From Candidatus Zhuqueibacterota bacterium (GTDB lineage: Bacteria > Zhuqueibacterota > JdFR-76 > DREG01), in assembly GCA_022566355.1 (NCBI GenBank), contig JADFJB010000006.1:67-64066 (forward strand): 64,000 nucleotides of DNA. The letters run 5' to 3'. The translations under genes and the position numbers were made by a program. Every line of letters begins with the position of its first letter. The stretch's first letter is position 1. This document shows, in pieces, positions 789 to 62,483 of this stretch. The notes beneath the pieces are model-generated. The model saw only the letters and a list, made by a program, of their open reading frames with translations, was not told where the DNA came from and made no database searches.

Positions 789-3209
<2,421 letters not shown>

Positions 3210-3430
3210 AGGCATCTCCTGGAAGGAAGTAATAGAGATACTTACTCTGTAAGGAGAATTAGTATGAGAAAGTCAAATTCAATTTGGGTGTTGATCGCTT
3301 TTGCTGCTGGTATCCAAATCCCGCGCATCCGGTTATTGTCTAGTTTGCCCTATTTACTTGGCTGTCATGGCCGAGAGCCTGGACGAATTCGAGAAGCGTT
3401 TGAAGGCGGATGGAATCATATAAGGTCCAT

Positions 3431-3673
3431 CTGCTGAAATTAGCCGACCGTGATATTAGAAAGATTGACGAACAACAAATTAGGCGCATTCTGGATGTGA
3501 TTCGGTCGCTTGCGGAAGATCCTTTTCAGACACAGCACAAGAAACTAAAGGAATAGGAGTCAGCATACCGTTAGCGCGTCGGTGATTATCGTGTAATATA
3601 TGAGGTAAACAAAGCGAAAAGGACCGTAAAGATTTTCTACATTCGACACAGAAAAGATGTTTATCGAAAGTAA
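3431..3673 (+). pseudogene. RelE/ParE-family toxin remnant with two in-frame TAG stops
   Basis: Translation LLKLADRDIRKIDEQQIRRILDVIRSLAEDPFQTQHKKLKE*ESAYR*RVGDYRVIYEVNKAKRTVKIFYIRHRKDVYRK matches the conserved RelE core (KKLKG...YRLRVGDYRVIY...RHRKDVY), but with two internal stops. Confidence 0.5.
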
Positions 3674-3726
3674 TGCACCGTTTCCTCACAACCCGACGAT
3701 CACTTTTTTTTGGATAACCCCGCCTT

Positions 3727-3870
3727 AGCGATAATTCTCCACAATCTGCGCAATCTCCCCCTCACTCAGGTCCGGCAACTCGGATCTCCTGGTCCGGCTT
3801 TTGGTGCTTGCTGATGTTTTCCAGGTAGGTCACGTAGAGCCCGTTTCACCGGGTCGTAGATGTCGTGGTA
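3727..3870 (-). repeat. Decayed duplicate of the 3' end (last ~19 codons plus ~80 nt of patchy similarity) of the gene at 4699..5445
   Basis: Minus-strand translation ends ELPDLSEGEIAQIVENYR*, against ELPDLSEGKIAQIVENYR* in the intact gene. The nucleotide alignment ttctccacaatctgcgc[a/g]atct...tcactcag... is ~75% identical over ~65 nt, and further shared blocks (ccgtttcacc) lie beyond it. Confidence 0.6.
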
Positions 3871-3945
3871 GGTTTAGATTGGAATATATAGGACACGGTT
3901 TATCCATTCTTCTGCTTCTGTTGCAATCCAAAGCAGGATTAGTTC

Positions 3946-4212
3946 TCAATAGCTGTATGAACACTGAGATGCTGTGGAACAATTAGGACACCTGGGCTTT
4001 CTTGTGAGGAAATAAATTGCGCGAAATTGCCTGGGTATGCTCTTTTTATCATGCTGTGACCAGGATGCGCTCTTCGTCTGCAGCAATTTTAAGAACATCT
4101 AAATCGAGTTTTCCCTCAAGCCCGGCTGCCGTTGCCGTTTGAAAGTCGATGGCAGGTTCACGGCGAATAACACCATTTAGAATAATGTGACTGAAGTCAG
4201 CATCGGCCTGAA
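3946..4212 (-). pseudogene. DUF5615 (PIN-like) protein, frameshifted
   Basis: Minus-strand translation (L)KTKFQADADFSHIILNGVIRREPAIDFQTATAAGLEGKLDLDVLKIAADEERILVTA* continues after a one-base shift as DKKSIPRQFRAIYFLTRKPRCPNCSTASQ. The N-terminal FxxDxD, RILVTxDKD and C-terminal NCST motifs fit DUF5615. It lies directly downstream of the DUF433 gene, as in canonical DUF433-DUF5615 pairs. Confidence 0.5.
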
Positions 4213-4221
4213 ATTTAGTTT

Positions 4222-4539
4222 TCAAATCAGTTCTGCTTTTCGTTTTCGTCTGGCATCAGCCAGTTTGAGGTAAAAACCGGGATCTGCTTGCTGAGCAGTT
4301 TTAAGTTTAGCTTCATAATCAGCCCGTTGATTTTTGAGGTATGCGTCAATGTTCTTTTTGTTGGCCAGGTAATAGGCAATGGCGCCGTAAACCTGCTCAA
4401 GGGAGAGCACAGGAAAAGCCTGAGCAATACTTTCAGCGGATTGCCCCTCCAGGAAAGCATAAACCACAGAATCAAGAGAAACTCTACTTCCTACAATCCA
4501 ATAACCTTCTTTCCGTTTTTCTATGTATGGTTTTTTCAT
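4222..4539 (-). CDS. DUF433 family protein (antitoxin-like partner of DUF5615)
   Basis: 105 aa, MKKPYIEKRKEGYWIVGSRVSLDSVVYAFLEGQSAESIAQAFPVLSLEQVYGAIAYY..., typical of DUF433. Adjacent to the DUF5615 remnant. Confidence 0.7.
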   Translation of the reverse strand: MKKPYIEKRKEGYWIVGSRVSLDSVVYAFLEGQSAESIAQAFPVLSLEQVYGAIAYYLANKKNIDAYLKNQRADYEAKLKTAQQADPGFYLKLADARRKRKAELI

Positions 4540-4698
4540 CGTATTTCTCCTGAAAGGCGTTGATCAACTCCAAGGAGCTCAAGAGATCCTAATTATCTAT
4601 CGATAATCGCTTTGCTCCTAGATAGCATGTGTCTCTGTGTGCACAAATAATATTACAAAAACTAATGACAAATCAAACCTTTTTGGGACAACCCTAGC

Positions 4699-5445
4699 CT
4701 ATCTGTAGTTCTCCACAATCTGCGCGATCTTACCTTCACTCAGATCGGGGAGCTCGATCTCGTAGTGAAACAGCGTGCTCTCCGTCACCACCGTTTCACC
4801 TGGCCCGTGCAGCTCCAAGCGGATCTCCAGCAGCCAGGGACCTTTGCGACAGTAGTCGTCCCACTTAAGCGTGCGCTCGATGTAGAAAAGTTCGTTATTA
4901 ATAGCGTCCGCGAGGCGCTGCTTCTCTTTGTTATGCCTTTGCAGCTCGGCATTCCCGGCTTGCGTGGTGTCCGGTGCGTGCACCTTCACAAACTCTGCAA
5001 CTTGAGGCTTGAGAATGTCCAGCCAGCGCCGGCGGCGGACCAGGGCGTCTTCCAGCTTAGGCCAACCGAACTCCCGCAGCTTAACCTTGCCGCTTCTCTT
5101 GAATTCCTCGATCTGTTTTTCGCTCAGACGCCAGGGGTATTTCGACCATTGAAAGGATTCTAACTTCTTACTCTCCAGATAGGCCTCGAAAGGACTCACC
5201 ACTTCTTGGAGCTTGGCAAGAAGCTCGTTGAAGTCACGGTCGAGTCGTGCGTGCAGGCTGTCGTTGGAGAAATGTTCCTGGACGAAGGCTGAGTCGCGAT
5301 AGGCGCCTGGGCAGATTTGTGCCTGTCCGCGCGCTGCAATGGGAAGAAAAAGGGAGAACAGCCAGAAGCCGGCAGTAATCGAGCTAAGCCGCGTTTTGGC
5401 AATCGATAGCATCAGAGGTTCTTGGAAAATTTTCTGAAGGATCAT
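4699..5445 (-). CDS. Hypothetical secreted protein (probable start at internal Met MLSIAK..., signal peptide)
   Basis: 248-aa ORF with an internal signal-like segment ITAGFWLFSLFLPIAARGQAQ. No recognisable domain. Its 3' end is duplicated at 3727..3870. Confidence 0.45.
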   Translation of the reverse strand: MILQKIFQEPLMLSIAKTRLSSITAGFWLFSLFLPIAARGQAQICPGAYRDSAFVQEHFSNDSLHARLDRDFNELLAKLQEVVSPFEAYLESKKLESFQWSKYPWRLSEKQIEEFKRSGKVKLREFGWPKLEDALVRRRRWLDILKPQVAEFVKVHAPDTTQAGNAELQRHNKEKQRLADAINNELFYIERTLKWDDYCRKGPWLLEIRLELHGPGETVVTESTLFHYEIELPDLSEGKIAQIVENYR

Positions 5446-57722: not shown

Positions 57723-57834
57723 TTTTAGTCTAGCGAGCTATCGTCTGTAACTCTTCTCTGATAACTTTTCGGAGCGTACTTTCCAACTTACATTCGTGTT
57801 GTTGAATTACTGGCATAATGCATCATTGATCAAG
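57723..57834 (-). repeat. Decayed duplicate of the brnA 3' end (~110 nt, ~88% identical to 58553..58666)
   Basis: ttttagtctagcgagctatcgtctgtaactcttctctgataacttttcggagcgtactttccaacttacattcgtgttgttgaattactggcataatgcatcattgatcaagg aligns base-for-base with the last ~35 codons plus stop of brnA. The copy carries stop codons (…LINDALCQ*). Confidence 0.8.
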
Positions 57835-57931
57835 GTCGTCTTGCAGGATGGGTAAGAGGCAACACAACGTACGAAACAGATTTCGGTTAGCGCATCAGAG
57901 CGGTGCTAGCTAGTGTGAAATTTATGTGACA

Positions 57932-58198
57932 CTATGCGCCCGCCAAACTTTTAGAACAACATGAGACGAGTGCAATCACAATTACCCCATTGTGATTTTC
58001 AAATTGGAGTGGAATAGTGTGAAAAAAATCTTTATCCGTAGTTAGAAAAATTGCTGAATTTTTTTGTGCTATATCAAAAAGAACAGAATCATCAACTCCT
58101 TTATATTCAATGGAATGTCCATCTATCGTTTCATGGCCAGTTGAATTTATATACGAAATACTTTTTCTAGGAAAATTCTCATCAAGAAAAAATATCAT
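57932..58198 (-). CDS. DUF5615 (PIN-like) protein
   Basis: MIFFLDENFPRKSISYINSTGHET...VDDSVLFDIAQKNSAIFLTTDKDFFH fits the DUF5615 consensus. The ATGA overlap with the upstream DUF433 reading frame is typical of this pair. Confidence 0.7.
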   Translation of the reverse strand: MIFFLDENFPRKSISYINSTGHETIDGHSIEYKGVDDSVLFDIAQKNSAIFLTTDKDFFHTIPLQFENHNGVIVIALVSCCSKSLAGA

Positions 58199-58441
58199 GA
58201 TACCTTGAGATTGTAAGGTAGACTTTCAAAACTGGAGAGGTAACTTCCAAATGAGAGCGCTGCTTGAATATCCTCTTTTGATATATTTGGATAGTCTTCC
58301 AAAATTTCTTGAAACGTATCTCCCGGATGCAAGAGCGCCAAGTATGTTACTTACAAGGACTCTTGTCCCTTTGATAACCGGCTTTCCATGACAAACATTT
58401 GGATTTATAGAAATTCTTTCAATCATAACCATTTCCTGCAT
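58195..58441 (-). pseudogene. DUF433 protein with +1 frameshift
   Basis: N-terminus MQEMVMIERISINPNVCHGKPVIKGTRVLVSNILGALASG is canonical DUF433. The conserved continuation DTFQEILEDYPNISKEDIQAALSF... is found in the +1 frame after an extra G in ...gcatccgggagatacg... Confidence 0.6.
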
Positions 58442-58560
58442 TCATTTATAGGTAAAAAAAACATTTTATAATTAAGCGCCAAAACGCAATAAGATCAAAA
58501 TTATTTTTTTGTGTGTTTTAAAAATGAATAGAATCTTCACTCGAAATGTTAATTTTTAGT

Positions 58561-58824
58561 CTAACGCGCTATTGTCTGTAACTCTTCTCTGATAACTTTC
58601 CGCAGCGTACTTTCCAACTTACCTTCGTGTTGTTGAATATACTGGCTTAATGCATCATTAATCAGGGTTTGGTAATTTCCACCACCCATTTTATGAACTT
58701 CATTGCGAAACCATTTAATTACATTGTCATCCAAACGAATGGTTATGCGTGTCTTACCAGGTGGCGATTTTACAACTGCACCTTGCTTAGCGCTACTAAA
58801 ATTATATTCTTCTTTTGCTTTCAT
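58561..58824 (-). CDS. brnA: BrnA-family antitoxin
   Basis: 87 aa; ...RITIRLDDNVIKWFRNEVHKMGGGNYQTLINDALSQYI... matches the BrnA (ribbon-helix-helix type) consensus. Confidence 0.7.
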   Translation of the reverse strand: MKAKEEYNFSSAKQGAVVKSPPGKTRITIRLDDNVIKWFRNEVHKMGGGNYQTLINDALSQYIQQHEGKLESTLRKVIREELQTIAR

Positions 58825-59077
58825 ATGTTTTACTCTCCGTTTTTGTGGCTTTGCGGGCTGAAATTATTCGAATATTGTCACCGCGATGCGTATACACGAC
58901 AACAAGTACTCGGCCAAATAAATCTATTCTGCTGTTGCAAATCGCTGTTCGTCCTCAATAATTTGATCTTTAATAGTTAAGCCCAGATCATCTTCAAGTA
59001 CACTCATTGCATCTGCAAAATCTAATTTATGCTTCTTTAGATTTCGAGTTGCCTTTTGCGCATCCCATTGATAATCT
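58795..59077 (-). pseudogene. BrnT-family toxin remnant (frameshift, no start codon)
   Basis: Minus-strand translation YQWDAQKATRNLKKHKLDFADAMSVLEDDLGLTIKDQIIEDEQRFATAE* continues after a shift as IDLFGRVLVVVYTHRGDNIRIISARKATKTE (BrnT: FEWDxxKxxxNxxKHxxxFxEAxxVF...RIISARxAxxxE). Precedes brnA in the canonical order. Confidence 0.5.
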
Positions 59078-59504
59078 ACTATGTTTCAATATATGCACAA
59101 TCAGTGCACAAAGCAAAGATTAAAAGTTGATCATAAATATTGGTGGGGATGATACTTTTATAGTGTTTATAAAATATGGTTCATCATTAAGGATGCATAC
59201 TTTTCGATTTGAAGCAAGGGGTCTATTTTTGAAATTAGGTTGGGACACAATATATTTATGATCCTTACTTATTAATCCTCTACGAGGTTATTTATGATCA
59301 ATTGCAGCAGAATGAGGCATCCACAGATTTTGATTTATCCTCGTTTAGGATATATTTATAAAAACTCTCGCAGAGAAAAAAACATCGGAGATGTTTAATT
59401 ATTGTAGAAACGAAGTCGAACATTTCCTCGTAGAGGATACATATGCGACTTGTATAACCTCTTCTTTCATTTCCACCATATTGACCTGGGGCAAAGAACC
59501 CCAA

Positions 59505-59580
59505 TGATTTTGAAATATGATATGACATACAATATTTAGAAGCGAATGTCAAGTTATTTTTGGGATTATTATCAATACAG
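59505..59580 (+). repeat. Copy 1 of a ~75-110-nt direct repeat (gattttgaaatatga...aatacaatattt..gcgaatgtcaag.tatttttgg)
   Basis: Aligns with 59813..59888 at ~85% identity. Weaker shared blocks (agatgaac..cgct..ga.aac.g.gg) continue ~35 nt further. Confidence 0.8.
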
Positions 59581-59700
59581 GGCCGCGGCACAATGAGATG
59601 AACGGCGCTCCTGATAACAGGATTACGGCTACTTGGCCAGTCCTGACGCCTCGGAACATAGATCTCGAATCCGATACTTGGACTGGTGCTTGCGGCCCTG
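59578..59700 (+). ncRNA. Candidate structured small RNA / structured DNA element (unclassified)
   Basis: GC-rich island in AT-rich DNA. Perfect 9-bp closing stem cagggccgc / gcggccctg; nested ccagtcc / ggactgg (7 bp), tcctg / cagga (5 bp) and tcgga / tccga (5 bp). No match to a known RNA family could be made by eye. Confidence 0.25.
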
Positions 59701-59812
59701 TTGTATCCATGTTACAAACCGAGAAATCCTTTGGCAAGACATAAAGATTCAGGAAGTAAATTTTCCCAATTCTAACTTAGATTCATCCTGAATCTGGTCC
59801 TGTGAATTCTTA

Positions 59813-59888
59813 CTGATTTTGAAATATGACATTAAATACAATATTTGATTGCGAATGTCAAGATATTTTTGGAAGCAAGGTCGGAAAA
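59813..59888 (+). repeat. Copy 2 of the ~75-110-nt direct repeat
   Basis: See copy 1. Spacing between copies is 308 nt. Confidence 0.8.
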
Positions 59889-60158
59889 GTAGTTTAGATG
59901 AACACCGCTTGAGAGAACCGTGGGCATAAATACATTCCTAGCTTCATAATTCAAAAATAATGTAATAATTTTTGCCTAGATTCCCAACAAATATTTTTAA
60001 TGGTTAATTATTATTGAGCTTTCAAACAACCTTACCTGCTCAAATTGCAACCAGGCAGCTAGCTGTTGTTGATTCATGGGGAGGAATAAATGTGGTAAAA
60101 GAAAAATATCATAGGTGAAGTTTCAGATTTTATTGTTTCATCGAAAAATGAAATTGTA

Positions 60159-61090: not shown

Positions 61091-61402
61091 GTGACGTATA
61101 TATTGATCACTGTTAAATTTAGAAGAATCTATTTGGAGAAATGTTATCGAATTAAAAGTGAAGCTCATAAAAAATGGGGCCCGATTGTCGGAGATAAGTA
61201 TATTAAGCAATTAAATTTAATCTATGCTACTGAATCAGTAAAGGATTTATATTTAATACCTCAATTACGATTTCATCCTTTAAAAGGCGACTTGGAAGGT
61301 CATCACTCTATTACTCTTACATATCGAGCACGTTTAATAGTTAAATGTGACGGTGATACTATCATTTTGATAGAAAAGGTAAGTACAAAACATTATGAGT
61401 AA
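61091..61402 (+). CDS. higB: HigB-like (RelE/ParE superfamily) toxin
   Basis: C-terminal LIPQLRFHPLKGDLEGHHSITLTYRARLIVKCDGDTIILIEKVSTKHYE matches the HigB plasmid-maintenance-killer motif (LKGDRxGxxSIRxNDQWRIxF...DYH). 8-nt overlap with the downstream antitoxin gene. Confidence 0.7.
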   Translation: MTYILITVKFRRIYLEKCYRIKSEAHKKWGPIVGDKYIKQLNLIYATESVKDLYLIPQLRFHPLKGDLEGHHSITLTYRARLIVKCDGDTIILIEKVSTKHYE

Positions 61403-62483
61403 TAATGATTTTTATACAGACAGTCCCATTCATCCGGGCGAGCATTTGAAAGATACTCTTGCATCTTTTGGTCTCTCACAAACTGAATTATCTAATCGTA
61501 TTGGAAAGTCCAGAAAGGTCATCAATGAAATTATTTCCGGCAAAGCTCCTATTGCACCCAGCACTGCGATTCTTTTAGAACGTGTTCTAAATGTGCCGGC
61601 TCATGTATGGAATAATCTACAGCGTAATTTTGACCTGAATATTGCATATCTATCTGAGCAAGTCAAAATAAAAAAGGAAAGTAAATTATTAAGCTACTTT
61701 CCTATTCGTCAAATGATCAAATTTGGGTGGATTCCGGAGTGTATGTCTAATGAAGAAAAAGTAAAAAATTTACTTTCATTTTTTTGTGTATCCAGCCTCA
61801 TGAATATTGAAAACTCTCTATCTGTTCAATTTCGTCGATCGATAAGAGATAATATTTCAAAAGAAGCTTTATACGCATGGATCCGGCAAGGTGAATATGA
61901 AGTCAGAAAAATTGAAACTTCAACCTACGACAAAATTGGTTTACAAAAATGTCTATCAGAATTGAGAAATCTTACAAATGTTTCACCGGAACTGTTTCAA
62001 CCTGAAGTTAAGAGAATTTGTGCTGGAGTTGGTGTTGCTGTTGTGTTTGTTCCAGAACTTCCAAAAACATACATCAATGGCGCCACATTTTGGTTTGATG
62101 GTTTTAAAAAATCAGCACTTTTATTAAGCCTTCGGTTTAAGACAAATGACAATCTTTGGTTTAGTTTTTTTCATGAATTAGGCCACATCATACTACATCG
62201 CAAAAAGGAAAACTTCCTGGATATCTCTGATTTAAAACTCACTGGTGAAGATCGAATCAAAGAAAAAGAAGCCGACACTTTTGCTGCTAATATTTTAATT
62301 CCGGATGCAAAATGGAACGATTTCAAATATTCGGTTCCGTACACAAGACAGAAGATTTTACAATTTTCGCAAGACATTGCAATAGCCCCTGGGATTGTTG
62401 TCGGACGTCTTCAAAAGGAAGAATTATTGCCTTATAGTCACCTTAATGGACTGAAAGAAAAATATCAATGGGTTCTGGATTGA
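61395..62483 (+). CDS. higA: HigA-type HTH antitoxin fused to C-terminal ImmA/IrrE-family (COG2856) zinc metallopeptidase domain
   Basis: N-terminus IHPGEHLKDTLASFGLSQTELSNRIGKSRKVINEIISGKAPIAPSTAILLERVLNVPAHVWNNLQRNFDL is canonical HigA. C-terminal region carries HELGHIILH (HExxH) plus downstream E/D, typical of ImmA/IrrE. 362 aa. Confidence 0.7.
   Translation: MSNNDFYTDSPIHPGEHLKDTLASFGLSQTELSNRIGKSRKVINEIISGKAPIAPSTAILLERVLNVPAHVWNNLQRNFDLNIAYLSEQVKIKKESKLLSYFPIRQMIKFGWIPECMSNEEKVKNLLSFFCVSSLMNIENSLSVQFRRSIRDNISKEALYAWIRQGEYEVRKIETSTYDKIGLQKCLSELRNLTNVSPELFQPEVKRICAGVGVAVVFVPELPKTYINGATFWFDGFKKSALLLSLRFKTNDNLWFSFFHELGHIILHRKKENFLDISDLKLTGEDRIKEKEADTFAANILIPDAKWNDFKYSVPYTRQKILQFSQDIAIAPGIVVGRLQKEELLPYSHLNGLKEKYQWVLD

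What the first reader, a model, noticed from the sequence alone, without database searches (positions are those of the whole stretch)
3727..4810. DUF433-DUF5615 pair inserted at the 3' end of a gene, followed by a decayed second copy of that gene's 3' end
On the minus strand the order is: hypothetical gene (5445→4699), DUF433 (4539→4222), frameshifted DUF5615 (4212→3946), ~80 nt spacer, then a degenerate copy of the last ~19 codons and stop of the hypothetical gene (ELPDLSEGEIAQIVENYR* versus ELPDLSEGKIAQIVENYR*; ~75% nt identity with patchy similarity over ~140 nt). This is the arrangement left by integrative elements that target a gene's 3' end and carry a replacement 3' end (attL/attR-like). 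The ~0.9-kb unit contains only the DUF433/DUF5615 pair and no integrase. The same geometry recurs at 57723..58666 with an unrelated host gene and a divergent DUF433/DUF5615 pair. That suggests it is a property of this module family rather than coincidence.
Basis: seen in the sequence. Interest (0 to 1): 0.75.

Follow-up and report, generated by a model that had tools for sequence, protein, structure and literature searches.

The report
Toxin-antitoxin cassettes bracketed by duplicated gene ends
Two small, decaying toxin-antitoxin gene pairs each sit between a host gene's working 3' end and a displaced second version of it, a recombination scar that hints at how such integrase-less "addiction" modules enter chromosomes.

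Summary
In this candidate-division KSB1 contig, two unrelated DUF433/DUF5615 (COG2442-PIN, VapBC-like) toxin-antitoxin pairs, both pseudogenised, are each bracketed by a direct repeat. One repeat is the 3' end of orphan gene X (88 nt, 77%). The other is the 3' end of brnA (115 nt, 91%).

The downstream copies are not neutrally decayed duplicates. Almost all differences are synonymous (locus 1: 10 synonymous codons including the stop, 1 replacement). The brnA remnant carries residues found in functional homologues. Each remnant therefore comes from a second, once-functional allele or paralogue.

The cassettes are discrete: relatives occur in other contexts with the same ends. No integrase lies within 6 kb. 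The two repeats share no core and do not fold like attC.

In 62 related loci from other phyla, 7 cassettes were bracketed by direct repeats, against 6 of 299 shifted controls (p = 0.002). Two of these loci repeat the gene-fragment geometry; most of the others involve dispersed repeats or cassette arrays.

Best reading: homology-driven insertion of a cassette that carries a replacement 3' end. This is the toxin-antitoxin counterpart of "insertion with long target duplication" known for restriction-modification systems, and of e14/phage 21 at icd. A decayed tandem paralogue remains a serious rival, especially at locus 2. No empty site was found.

The parts
4699..5445 (-). Host gene X: a 248-aa orphan protein with a hydrophobic N-terminal stretch that looks like a signal peptide (seen by eye, not tested). 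It is intact, and its last 22 codons lie in repeat copy A.
   Evidence: ORF. No Pfam or NCBIfam hit. Among 5.8 billion proteins only its own cluster and one 56%-identical homologue with a different C-terminus were found.
4680..4766 (-). Locus 1 repeat copy A: the 3' end of X, its stop codon and about 20 nt downstream.
   Evidence: Codon comparison.
4540..4679 (-). Locus 1 cassette leader. A sigma-70-like site (TTGATT-18-TATTAT, 4676..4647) starts directly at the end of copy A.
   Evidence: this is a consensus match only and is not above chance. The stretch 4625..4540 is shared at 88% with L186.
4222..4539 (-). Locus 1 DUF433 antitoxin gene, intact, 105 aa.
   Evidence: Pfam PF04255, E = 3.5e-8. 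2373 homologues found.
3874..4225 (-). Locus 1 DUF5615 (PIN-like) toxin pseudogene, read in three frame segments: 4225..4055, 4046..3942 and 3941..3877.
   Evidence: Pfam PF18480 on the N-terminal segment. tblastn with the intact L186 homologue. Nucleotide homology with L013 and L186.
3810..3873 (-). Locus 1 cassette 3' flank. It is conserved with relative L186, which has a different downstream context, so it marks the right end of the mobile unit.
3706..3793 (-). Locus 1 repeat copy B: the displaced 3' end of a second X allele (…SELPDLSEGEIAQIVENYR*) plus about 20 nt downstream. It is no longer part of an ORF.
   Evidence: Synonymous bias P = 1.8e-4.
58561..58824 (-). Locus 2 host gene brnA, an intact 87-aa antitoxin. 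The brnT gene upstream (about 59111..58802) is a pseudogene.
   Evidence: Pfam PF14384 and PF04365. Sequence.
58554..58668 (-). Locus 2 repeat copy A: the last 33 codons of brnA, the stop and 7 nt, ending at TAGACTAAAA.
58442..58553 (-). Locus 2 cassette leader. It is shared with L103 and absent from L104.
58195..58441 (-). Locus 2 DUF433 pseudogene, with one frameshift near 58320.
   Evidence: Pfam hits on both halves. tblastn with the intact L104 homologue.
57932..58198 (-). Locus 2 DUF5615 / PIN-like toxin, truncated after ...GVIVIAL. Homology with L104 ends at 57969.
   Evidence: Pfam PF18480, E = 6.7e-15..
57837..57968 (-). 132-nt filler of unknown origin between the truncated toxin and repeat copy B.
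   Evidence: No match to any fetched locus.
57723..57836 (-). Locus 2 repeat copy B: a remnant of a second brnA allele from codon 55 to 7 nt past the stop, with one frameshift and one Gly-to-Cys change.
   Evidence: The 'ALCQ' state is shared with functional homologues.

Best explanation
What it is. Each locus holds a discrete, self-promoted type II toxin-antitoxin cassette: a DUF433 antitoxin and a DUF5615 PIN-like toxin. It lies between two different alleles of the same short stretch of chromosome. The upstream copy completes the host gene. The downstream copy is the displaced 3' end of another, formerly functional version of that gene.

How it arose (inferred). An incoming DNA molecule carried the cassette next to a homologous 3' end. 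It recombined with the resident gene in one of two ways. Either a single reciprocal crossover took place with a circular [repeat + cassette] molecule (Campbell type). Or a homologous crossover occurred on the gene side and an illegitimate join on the far side. Host recombination functions suffice, and nothing encoded in the cassette is required. The host gene stays intact, so the insertion is tolerated. The addictive cassette then resists loss until its toxin decays, which has happened at both loci.

What it resembles. This is the toxin-antitoxin counterpart of the 'insertion with long target duplication' described for restriction-modification gene complexes. In outcome it also resembles e14/phage 21 at icd.

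Shown here: the geometry, the sharp boundaries, the discreteness of the cassettes, the allele-like nature of the remnants, the absence of a recombinase gene nearby, and the recurrence elsewhere.

Inferred: the recombination route, the direction of the event (which copy is resident), and the existence of a donor.
For: - Repeats are significant and bracket the cassettes tightly. Copy A ends where the leader begins. At locus 1, copy B starts about 17 nt after the end of the cassette flank.
- Cassettes are discrete. The locus-1 unit recurs at 88% in L186 with a different downstream sequence. It recurs at 77% in L013 between methylmalonyl-CoA mutase subunit genes. The locus-2 unit recurs in L103 and L104.
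- The BrnTA module has the same right end, TAGACTAAAA, in four contexts.
- The remnants evolved as coding sequence. Locus 1 has 10 synonymous codon changes (including TAG/TAA) against 1 replacement, P = 1.8e-4. Locus 2 has 7 against 2, P = 0.018.
- The locus-2 remnant matches functional homologues at nearly all sites, while the resident copy has at least 4 derived changes.
- L049 shows the same pattern: 16 synonymous against 4 replacement codons, P = 7e-4, frame intact at 72% nucleotide identity.
- No integrase lies within about 6 kb of either locus.
- This DUF433 clade has 3 weak plasmid hits and none in phage or IMG/VR collections.
- Survey: bracketing repeats at 7/62 cassettes against 6/299 shifted positions, Fisher p = 0.0023.
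- L036 repeats the geometry with 58 codons plus 227 nt and the cassette in the opposite orientation.
- L066 keeps a relic of tandem amplification through the repeats.
- Precedent in restriction-modification systems: PMC2853133.
Against: - No empty site, donor or circular form was found. All population contigs carry both cassettes.
- No X allele with the B-type end exists among 5.8 billion proteins.
- The repeats are short and diverged: 88 nt at 77%, with a longest identical run of 17 nt. That is a poor substrate for RecA-dependent exchange.
- L049 needs an extra deletion under this model.
- Locus 2 lies in an array where deletions are documented. There is a DUF4160 scar at about 59.9 kb, and the 132-nt filler is unexplained. 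A deleted second BrnTA cassette explains that locus about equally well.
- Most bracketing repeats in the survey are dispersed elements rather than target duplications.
- The second survey gave only 2/37 positives.
Confidence: 0.42

Rival explanations
1. Decayed tandem paralogue or second cassette. The toxin-antitoxin pair once lay between two full-length functional copies of the host gene (X1-TA-X2; BrnTA-TA-BrnTA). A later deletion removed everything from the cassette end to the last 22-33 codons of the second copy.
For: - It explains the synonymous bias equally well.
- Toxin-antitoxin pairs between intact paralogues do occur: L108 (ABC_sub_bind), L084 (Uma2) and L056.
- Locus 2 sits in an array that has been reshuffled relative to L104, with a deletion scar inside a DUF4160 gene and a truncated DUF5615.
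- BrnTA is itself a mobile cassette seen in several contexts.
Against: - At locus 1 the deletion would have to start within about 17 nt of the cassette's own end and stop exactly where similarity to X begins. The transition there is abrupt: 17 of 18 residues identical, then none.
- A similar coincidence is needed in L049, where the fragment starts 11 nt after the toxin stop.
- No other X fragment exists in the window, and X is an orphan gene.
Confidence: 0.3
2. Non-autonomous site-specific element. The unit is an integrase-less element bounded by attL/attR and mobilised in trans by a tyrosine or serine recombinase encoded elsewhere. It would resemble a cis-mobilisable element or a stripped-down e14. 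Its attP would contain a replacement 3' end.
For: - The geometry is identical to e14/phage 21 at icd and to tRNA-targeting islands.
- The repeats contain identical runs that could serve as a core: 17 nt at locus 1 and 26 nt at locus 2.
- The unit is compact, with sharp ends.
Against: - No recombinase gene within about 6 kb of either locus.
- The repeats of the two loci and of L036, L049 and L066 are unrelated in sequence and in the kind of feature they cover (3' ends, 5' ends, intergenic DNA). Each would need its own recombinase.
- No fold or inverted-repeat architecture in the repeats.
- This clade is absent from viral and phage collections.
Confidence: 0.1
3. In-situ long target-site duplication at the moment of insertion (staggered breaks and fill-in, as proposed for restriction-modification systems), followed by neutral decay of the downstream copy.
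For: - It gives the right geometry by construction.
- It fits L066 (1 synonymous against 3 replacement changes) and possibly L036 (98% identity in the coding part).
- Precedent: PMC2853133.
Against: - Rejected for locus 1, locus 2 and L049 by the synonymous bias (P = 1.8e-4, 0.018 and 7e-4).
- At locus 2 the remnant has changed far less than the resident copy's synonymous sites.
- It could only be rescued if the duplication originally covered the whole gene, which merges it with the paralogue rival.
Confidence: 0.06
4. Integron-type gene cassette, with the repeats acting as attC sites of neighbouring cassettes.
For: - Toxin-antitoxin cassettes are common in chromosomal integrons.
- Some survey loci (L087, L071) are arrays of toxin-antitoxin cassettes separated by a conserved repeat of about 60-150 nt.
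Against: - The window repeats are coding sequence under protein-level constraint.
- They are unrelated between the two loci, occur only twice each, and show no hairpin potential (z-scores -1.2 to +0.4).
- No intI gene was seen among the ORFs scanned.
Confidence: 0.02

Closest known systems
Insertion with long target duplication of restriction-modification gene complexes (Nobusato et al. 2000, Gene 259:99; Furuta, Abe & Kobayashi 2010, PMC2853133)
   Same: An addiction module with no mobility gene is bracketed by long direct repeats of local target sequence. The repeats vary in length (46-423 bp there, 45-460 bp here), and some overlap the 3' end of the neighbouring gene. Flanking repeats are statistically enriched relative to other positions. 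A relic of amplification through the repeats is seen in L066.
   Different: The cargo here is a toxin-antitoxin pair, not a restriction-modification system. A 2014 review by the same group ascribes this mode to restriction-modification systems only (PMC3874152). In the window the two repeat copies are diverged functional alleles, not fresh duplicates. The defining comparison with an empty-site genome could not be made.
e14 / phage 21 integration into icd, and islands at tRNA 3' ends, where the element supplies a replacement 3' end (own knowledge; the primary papers were not read here)
   Same: The host gene is kept intact by an element-borne 3' end. The original 3' end is displaced to the far side as a pseudogene fragment. 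The two versions differ mainly at synonymous sites.
   Different: Those elements encode their own integrase and recombine at a defined core. Here there is no integrase, no shared core, the unit is only 0.8-0.9 kb, and target sequences are unrelated between cases.
PIN-COG2442 (DUF433) type II toxin-antitoxin modules, e.g. Synechocystis vapBC10 (PMC3834315; predicted in PMC2701414)
   Same: Same two-gene architecture and the same domains, with overlapping stop and start codons. Patchy distribution across cyanobacteria, Chloroflexi, Acidobacteriota and Planctomycetota.
   Different: Both window copies are pseudogenised. The published work concerns function and regulation, not the mode of insertion.
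Homology-facilitated illegitimate recombination during natural transformation (own knowledge: de Vries & Wackernagel 2002; not read here)
   Same: One-sided homology anchors foreign DNA and the other end joins illegitimately. No mobile-element functions are needed. This would give a host gene with a donor-type 3' end, followed by foreign DNA and then resident sequence.
   Different: The donor fragment would have to end at the cassette boundary in several independent cases. The microhomology at the joint cannot be examined without the donor sequence.

Membership tests
Type II toxin-antitoxin module, PIN-COG2442 (DUF433/DUF5615) class | Upstream small gene with a DUF433 (COG2442) DNA-binding domain | tested here: met
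   PF04255, E = 3.5e-8 at locus 1; 4.8e-12 and 5.4e-9 on the two halves at locus 2.
Type II toxin-antitoxin module, PIN-COG2442 (DUF433/DUF5615) class | Adjacent downstream gene with a PIN-like DUF5615 domain that overlaps or abuts the antitoxin stop codon | tested here: met
   Locus 2: PF18480, E = 6.7e-15. Locus 1: the N-terminal fragment scores 23.1 bits against a cut-off of 23.8, but it is 91% identical to the intact L186 protein, which passes the cut-off. Gene overlaps are at 4225/4222 and 58198/58195.
Type II toxin-antitoxin module, PIN-COG2442 (DUF433/DUF5615) class | Toxin is growth-inhibiting and is neutralised by the antitoxin | not testable with these tools
   Both toxin genes are disrupted here. 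Activity has been shown for a family member in PMC3834315, of which only the abstract was seen.
Insertion with long target duplication (criteria of Furuta et al. 2010) | Insert under 20 kb containing the addiction module and no mobility genes | tested here: met
   Inserts are about 0.89 and 0.72 kb and hold only the two genes. The neighbourhood lacks integrase and transposase genes.
Insertion with long target duplication (criteria of Furuta et al. 2010) | Flanking direct repeat longer than 30 bp that is otherwise unique | tested here: met
   Repeats are 88 and 115 nt, and each occurs only twice in the 64-kb window. Uniqueness across the whole genome could not be checked.
Insertion with long target duplication (criteria of Furuta et al. 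2010) | A related genome without the insert carries a single copy of the repeat | tested here: inconclusive
   No empty site was found. All contigs of the population carry the cassettes, and X has no close homologue elsewhere.
Insertion with long target duplication (criteria of Furuta et al. 2010) | The two repeat copies derive from one target sequence duplicated at insertion | tested here: not met
   Synonymous bias and rate asymmetry show that the copies were separate functional alleles.
Integrase-driven integrative element with a replacement 3' end (e14/icd type) | Site-specific recombinase encoded in the element | tested here: not met
   Only the two toxin-antitoxin genes lie between the repeats. 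No recombinase gene within about 6 kb.
Integrase-driven integrative element with a replacement 3' end (e14/icd type) | Direct repeats made of the target gene's 3' end, with the gene kept intact | tested here: met
Integrase-driven integrative element with a replacement 3' end (e14/icd type) | A defined identical core where strand exchange occurs, and a demonstrable excision or empty site | tested here: inconclusive
   The longest identical runs are 17 and 26 nt. There is no shared motif between the loci and no empty site.
Integron gene cassette | attC site: an imperfect palindrome that folds as single-stranded DNA and is similar between neighbouring cassettes | tested here: not met
   DNA folding z-scores range from -1.2 to +0.4. 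The repeats are coding sequence, and those of the two loci are unrelated.

The most novel reading that the evidence does not exclude
Toxin-antitoxin cassettes bracketed by a piece of a conserved host gene would be self-propagating units that need no recombinase of their own. Host homologous recombination between the repeats releases a circular [repeat + cassette] molecule. After transfer, the circle re-enters the homologous gene of a diverged lineage. The diverged, allele-like repeats seen here (locus 1, locus 2, L049) would then be the footprint of that re-invasion step. Furuta et al. hypothesised this life-cycle stage for restriction-modification systems and reported no evidence for it. If correct, this would give a testable general answer to how chromosomal toxin-antitoxin modules spread without mobile elements.
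Probability: 0.18. Interest if true: 0.72.

Novelty: new variant of a known kind. Interest (0 to 1): 0.5.

Why it matters
Type II toxin-antitoxin modules are among the most horizontally mobile genes in prokaryotes. Many sit in ordinary chromosomal positions with no transposase, integrase, plasmid or phage nearby, and how they get there is not established.

These loci show insertion scars with sharp boundaries and a displaced, allele-like copy of the neighbouring gene's 3' end. The same is seen in a minority of related loci in Acidobacteriota, Planctomycetota and cyanobacteria. This points to recombination through flanking homology as one route of entry. It links toxin-antitoxin modules to the 'long target duplication' behaviour described so far for restriction-modification systems.

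It also gives a practical signature for dating and orienting such insertions in metagenome-assembled genomes: unique direct repeats longer than 30 bp around a toxin-antitoxin pair, with synonymous-biased divergence between the copies. Annotators should also be aware that short in-frame 'gene tails' next to toxin-antitoxin pairs are scars, not genes.

Tried and rejected
- Empty-site search. Exact-protein look-ups for X, BrnA and the neighbouring four-helix-bundle gene returned only contigs of the same population, all with the cassettes. A homology search for X found one distant homologue on a 1-kb contig with a different C-terminus and no cassette information.
- B-type BrnA alleles. They were followed into five other contexts (L103, L104, L105, L188, L189). 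None is the empty version of the window site.
- A longer locus-1 remnant. I first thought copy B began at an in-frame 'LRPGET' match right after the toxin stop. I retracted this because that stretch is conserved in L186's cassette flank.
- A shared core between the two loci. The only shared element is the 9-mer GAAGGTAAG, present in the A copies, which is expected by chance at about 0.03 and is absent from other cases. I rejected it. The runs of A at the repeat ends were not pursued.
- attC or hairpin character of the repeats: none.
- Rfam. Nothing at locus 2. The only hit was an Acido-Lenti-1 motif inside the L050 repeat.
- The 132-nt filler at 57968..57837 matched nothing.
- Carriage by plasmids, phages or viral contigs: essentially none for this DUF433 clade.
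- Literature. I found no paper describing toxin-antitoxin insertion with long target duplication, and none linking toxin-antitoxin modules to homology-facilitated illegitimate recombination.
- Assembly chimerism: rejected, because independent assemblies reproduce both structures.
- A mosaic (crossover) pattern inside the locus-2 repeat, using L103 and L105 as outgroups: no clear switch point.
Full report
**Observation**

The window comes from a candidate division KSB1 bacterium. The DUF433 protein of locus 1 is named so by NCBI, and its longest contig is 64,099 nt.

*Locus 1, minus strand*
- Orphan gene X, 5445..4699.
- A 140-nt leader.
- An intact DUF433 gene, 4539..4222.
- A DUF5615 gene that really spans 4225..3874 and is broken by at least two frameshifts.
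- About 65 nt of flank.
- An 88-nt copy (3793..3706) of the last 22 codons, the stop codon and about 20 nt downstream of X.

*Locus 2, minus strand*
- A brnT pseudogene.
- Intact brnA, 58824..58561.
- A 112-nt leader.
- A frameshifted DUF433.
- A truncated DUF5615.
- 132 nt of unknown origin.
- A 114-nt copy (57836..57723) of brnA from codon 55 to 7 nt past the stop.

*Significance and reality of the repeats*
- A self-comparison of the 64 kb finds only five repeats. Two of them bracket these pairs, with E = 2e-9 and 3e-39.
- Ten independent assemblies reproduce locus 1 and at least four reproduce locus 2, at 99-100% identity. The structures are therefore not assembly artefacts.

**The remnants are displaced alleles, not decayed duplicates**

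*Locus 1.* Copies A and B differ at 13 nucleotide positions across the last 19 codons and the stop. Ten codons, including TAG against TAA, change synonymously and one changes the residue. Suppose instead that the downstream copy had been non-functional from birth. About 59% of the changed codons should then alter the protein. The observed pattern has P = 1.8e-4 under that model.

*Locus 2.*
- Seven synonymous and two replacement changes, P = 0.018.
- One of the 'replacements' (Ser to Cys) is the state found in functional BrnA homologues that are 80-95% identical.
- Against the outgroups L103 and L105, the remnant has only two private changes, an indel and a Gly-to-Cys change.
- The resident copy has at least four derived changes.
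- The remnant therefore became a pseudogene only recently.

In both cases two versions of the gene end, each shaped by protein-level selection, have been brought together on either side of the cassette.

**The cassettes are discrete units**

*Locus 1*
- L186, a marine-metagenome contig, matches window 4625..3841 at 88%. The match covers the leader, both genes and at least 33 nt after the toxin stop. Weaker similarity continues to about 3810, after which the sequences differ.
- Copy B begins about 17 nt beyond that point.
- L013 carries an intact relative at 77% identity between two methylmalonyl-CoA mutase subunit genes, with no flanking repeat.

*Locus 2*
- L103 has brnTA, the same leader and the start of DUF433, at 89% identity.
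- L104 comes from a syntenic region of a relative. It reads brnA, then a DUF4160/DUF2442 pair, then intact DUF433/DUF5615, and has no remnant.
- The BrnTA module ends at the same TAGACTAAAA in four contexts.
- The window also keeps the leader and the first five codons of the DUF4160 gene, followed by a deletion scar (about 60009..59890). The array has clearly been reshuffled between relatives.

**What is absent**
- No integrase or transposase lies between the repeats or within about 6 kb of either locus.
- The two repeats are unrelated and share no convincing core.
- As single-stranded DNA they fold no better than shuffled sequence, with z-scores from -1.2 to +0.4.
- The DUF433 clade has three weak plasmid hits, no phage hit, and no relative in 2.9 million viral contigs.

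**Is this a property of the module family?**

I fetched 80 loci from genome representatives using a DUF433 alignment. I then asked whether direct repeats with E < 1e-6 bracket the pair.

*First survey*
- Repeats bracketed the pair at 7 of 62 testable loci, with L050 as an eighth that had too little flank for the formal test.
- The same test at positions shifted by 1.6-3.2 kb was positive at 6 of 299 positions (Fisher p = 0.0023).
- Some of those control positives lie in toxin-antitoxin arrays themselves.

*Second survey*
- A metagenome set with shorter flanks gave 2 of 37.

On inspection the positives are heterogeneous.

*Unique local duplications*
- L036 (Thermoanaerobaculia). The last 58 codons of an FAD-binding oxidase plus 227 nt downstream are duplicated around a 1.6-kb insert. 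The cassette lies in the opposite orientation. The coding part is 97.7% identical and the non-coding part 89.9%.
- L049 (Acidobacteria). A 30-codon fragment of the upstream class-V aminotransferase (cysteine-desulfurase-like) starts 11 nt after the toxin stop. It is 72% identical at the nucleotide level, with 16 synonymous against 4 replacement codons (P = 7e-4) and an intact frame.
- L066 (Nostoc). The repeat covers the start of the downstream ORF. A fragment of an earlier tandem cassette copy is also present.
- L031. A 45-nt intergenic repeat.

*Dispersed or array repeats*
- L014 and L016 (Planctomycetota). The whole repeat-cassette-repeat unit is 91% identical between two genomes but lies in different contexts.
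- L050. Its repeat contains an Rfam Acido-Lenti-1 motif.
- L043, L054, L071, L073, L078 and L087.

*Flanking paralogues*
- L056, L084 and L108.

So bracketing repeats are enriched around this module. Duplication of a host gene's coding 3' region is a minority outcome: two survey loci plus the two in the window.

**Mechanism**

In-situ target duplication with neutral decay is rejected for both window loci and for L049. Two readings remain.

*(i) An incoming molecule carrying [homologous 3' end + cassette] recombined with the resident gene.* The route would be a Campbell-type single crossover, or one-sided homology plus an illegitimate join. The other allele's end was left displaced downstream.
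- In favour: at locus 1 and in L049 the remnant abuts the cassette's own end, and similarity to the host gene starts abruptly.
- Against: the repeats are short and diverged, and no donor is known.

*(ii) The cassette lay between two functional paralogues, and one was later truncated.*
- This needs deletion end-points that coincide with cassette ends at locus 1 and L049.
- It is quite plausible at locus 2, given the documented deletions in that array and the unexplained filler.

I put (i) at about 0.42 and (ii) at about 0.30. An element mobilised in trans by a site-specific recombinase gets about 0.10, and the remaining alternatives get little.

**Comparison with what is known**
- The gene pair is the PIN-COG2442 toxin-antitoxin class. 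It was predicted by Makarova et al. (PMC2701414) and validated for Synechocystis vapBC10 (PMC3834315).
- The closest described phenomenon is 'insertion with long target duplication' of restriction-modification complexes. Those repeats are 46-423 bp, some overlap gene 3' ends, and no mobility genes are present. The authors hypothesised a cycle of insertion, amplification through the repeats and release, and they found no evidence for release or re-invasion (PMC2853133).
- A later review from that group ascribes this mode to restriction-modification systems only (PMC3874152).
- I found no report of it for toxin-antitoxin modules.
- In outcome the loci also resemble e14/phage 21 at icd (own knowledge), but they lack the integrase that defines such elements.
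- I therefore class this as a new variant of a known kind. It works like those systems, but it fails one defining test for each of the two closest families: a single-origin duplication, and an encoded recombinase.

**Verdict**

The integrative-element (att/integrase) part is not. Generality is partial. The finding is of moderate interest. It offers a concrete, testable scar of how integrase-less toxin-antitoxin cassettes enter chromosomes. Without an empty site or a donor, the mechanism remains inferred.

Noticed in passing
window 3410..3673 (+): A ParE/RelE-family toxin pseudogene with two in-frame stop codons, convergent on the X remnant. With the stops masked it matches Pfam ParE_toxin at E = 6.7e-10. 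A short possible antitoxin ORF lies upstream, around 3300-3420. Locus 1 therefore sits beside a second decayed toxin-antitoxin module.
   Followed up: partly
window 60009..59446 (-): The leader and first five codons (MPTVL) of a DUF4160 gene are followed by a deletion scar. Next comes a roughly 375-nt segment (59821..59446) that in relative L104 lies downstream of DUF433/DUF5615. L104 has the full DUF4160/DUF2442 pair at this position. A promoter-like 59-nt direct repeat (59505-59563 and 59814-59872, 86%) lies in this region. Rfam finds nothing.
   Followed up: partly
window 57837..57968: A 132-nt filler between the truncated DUF5615 and the brnA remnant.
   Followed up: yes
window 61091..62483 (+): A HigB-like toxin gene (103 aa) overlaps a 362-aa gene with HTH_3 and Peptidase_M78 (IrrE-like) domains. 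Together with BrnTA and DUF433/DUF5615 this makes 57.7-62.5 kb a low-GC (33-35%) islet of toxin-antitoxin and defence genes.
   Followed up: no
window 789..3209 (+): Two adjacent genes for collagen-repeat and Peptidase_S74 (endosialidase-chaperone) proteins, which resemble tail fibres. They have internal repeats (1698-1974 against 1752-2074; 2384-2417 against 2597-2630) and follow a gene with a type IX secretion sorting domain.
   Followed up: no
L087 1..8294 (Acidobacteriota MAG): An array of at least seven toxin-antitoxin cassettes: ParE-like, VapBC, HigBA-like, MqsRA-like, two DUF433/DUF5615 pairs and HepT/MNT. The family assignments were made by eye from the ORF translations, not from a Pfam search. 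The array also holds repeated motifs of about 60-150 nt at roughly 0.9-1 kb intervals. The commonest is GAACCGGCCACGGAGGGGACGCGGTG..GAGATGTTGCCCGGGTTCGTGGGGCGC, and there are other REP-like hairpins. It looks like an integron-less cassette array. No canonical attC R-boxes were seen by eye.
   Followed up: partly
L014 3534..5085 and L016 3535..4911 (Planctomycetota MAGs): A 1.4-1.5-kb unit made of a roughly 300-nt repeat, DUF433/DUF5615 and the repeat again. It is 91% identical between two genomes but lies in different contexts. Further solo copies of the repeat occur in L016. It may be a composite element built on a dispersed repeat.
   Followed up: partly
L049 4663..4770: The aminotransferase fragment downstream of the toxin forms a 37-codon ORF (MKIGLRSLLVQLKHDV...). 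Its ATG overlaps the DUF5615 stop (ATGA), as in translationally coupled genes. This may be coincidence.
   Followed up: no
L066 3574..4881 (Nostoc MAG): A 103-nt internal fragment of DUF433 (89% identical to the intact gene) lies just upstream of the left repeat copy. The layout is: deleted cassette, repeat, cassette, repeat. That is what is expected after tandem amplification through the flanking repeats.
   Followed up: partly
L050 3861..3905 (-): An Rfam Acido-Lenti-1 RNA motif (39.4 bits, gathering score 37) lies inside the 171-nt repeat that brackets the cassette in a Thermoanaerobaculum MAG. This suggests the motif belongs to a dispersed repeat associated with cassette boundaries.
   Followed up: no
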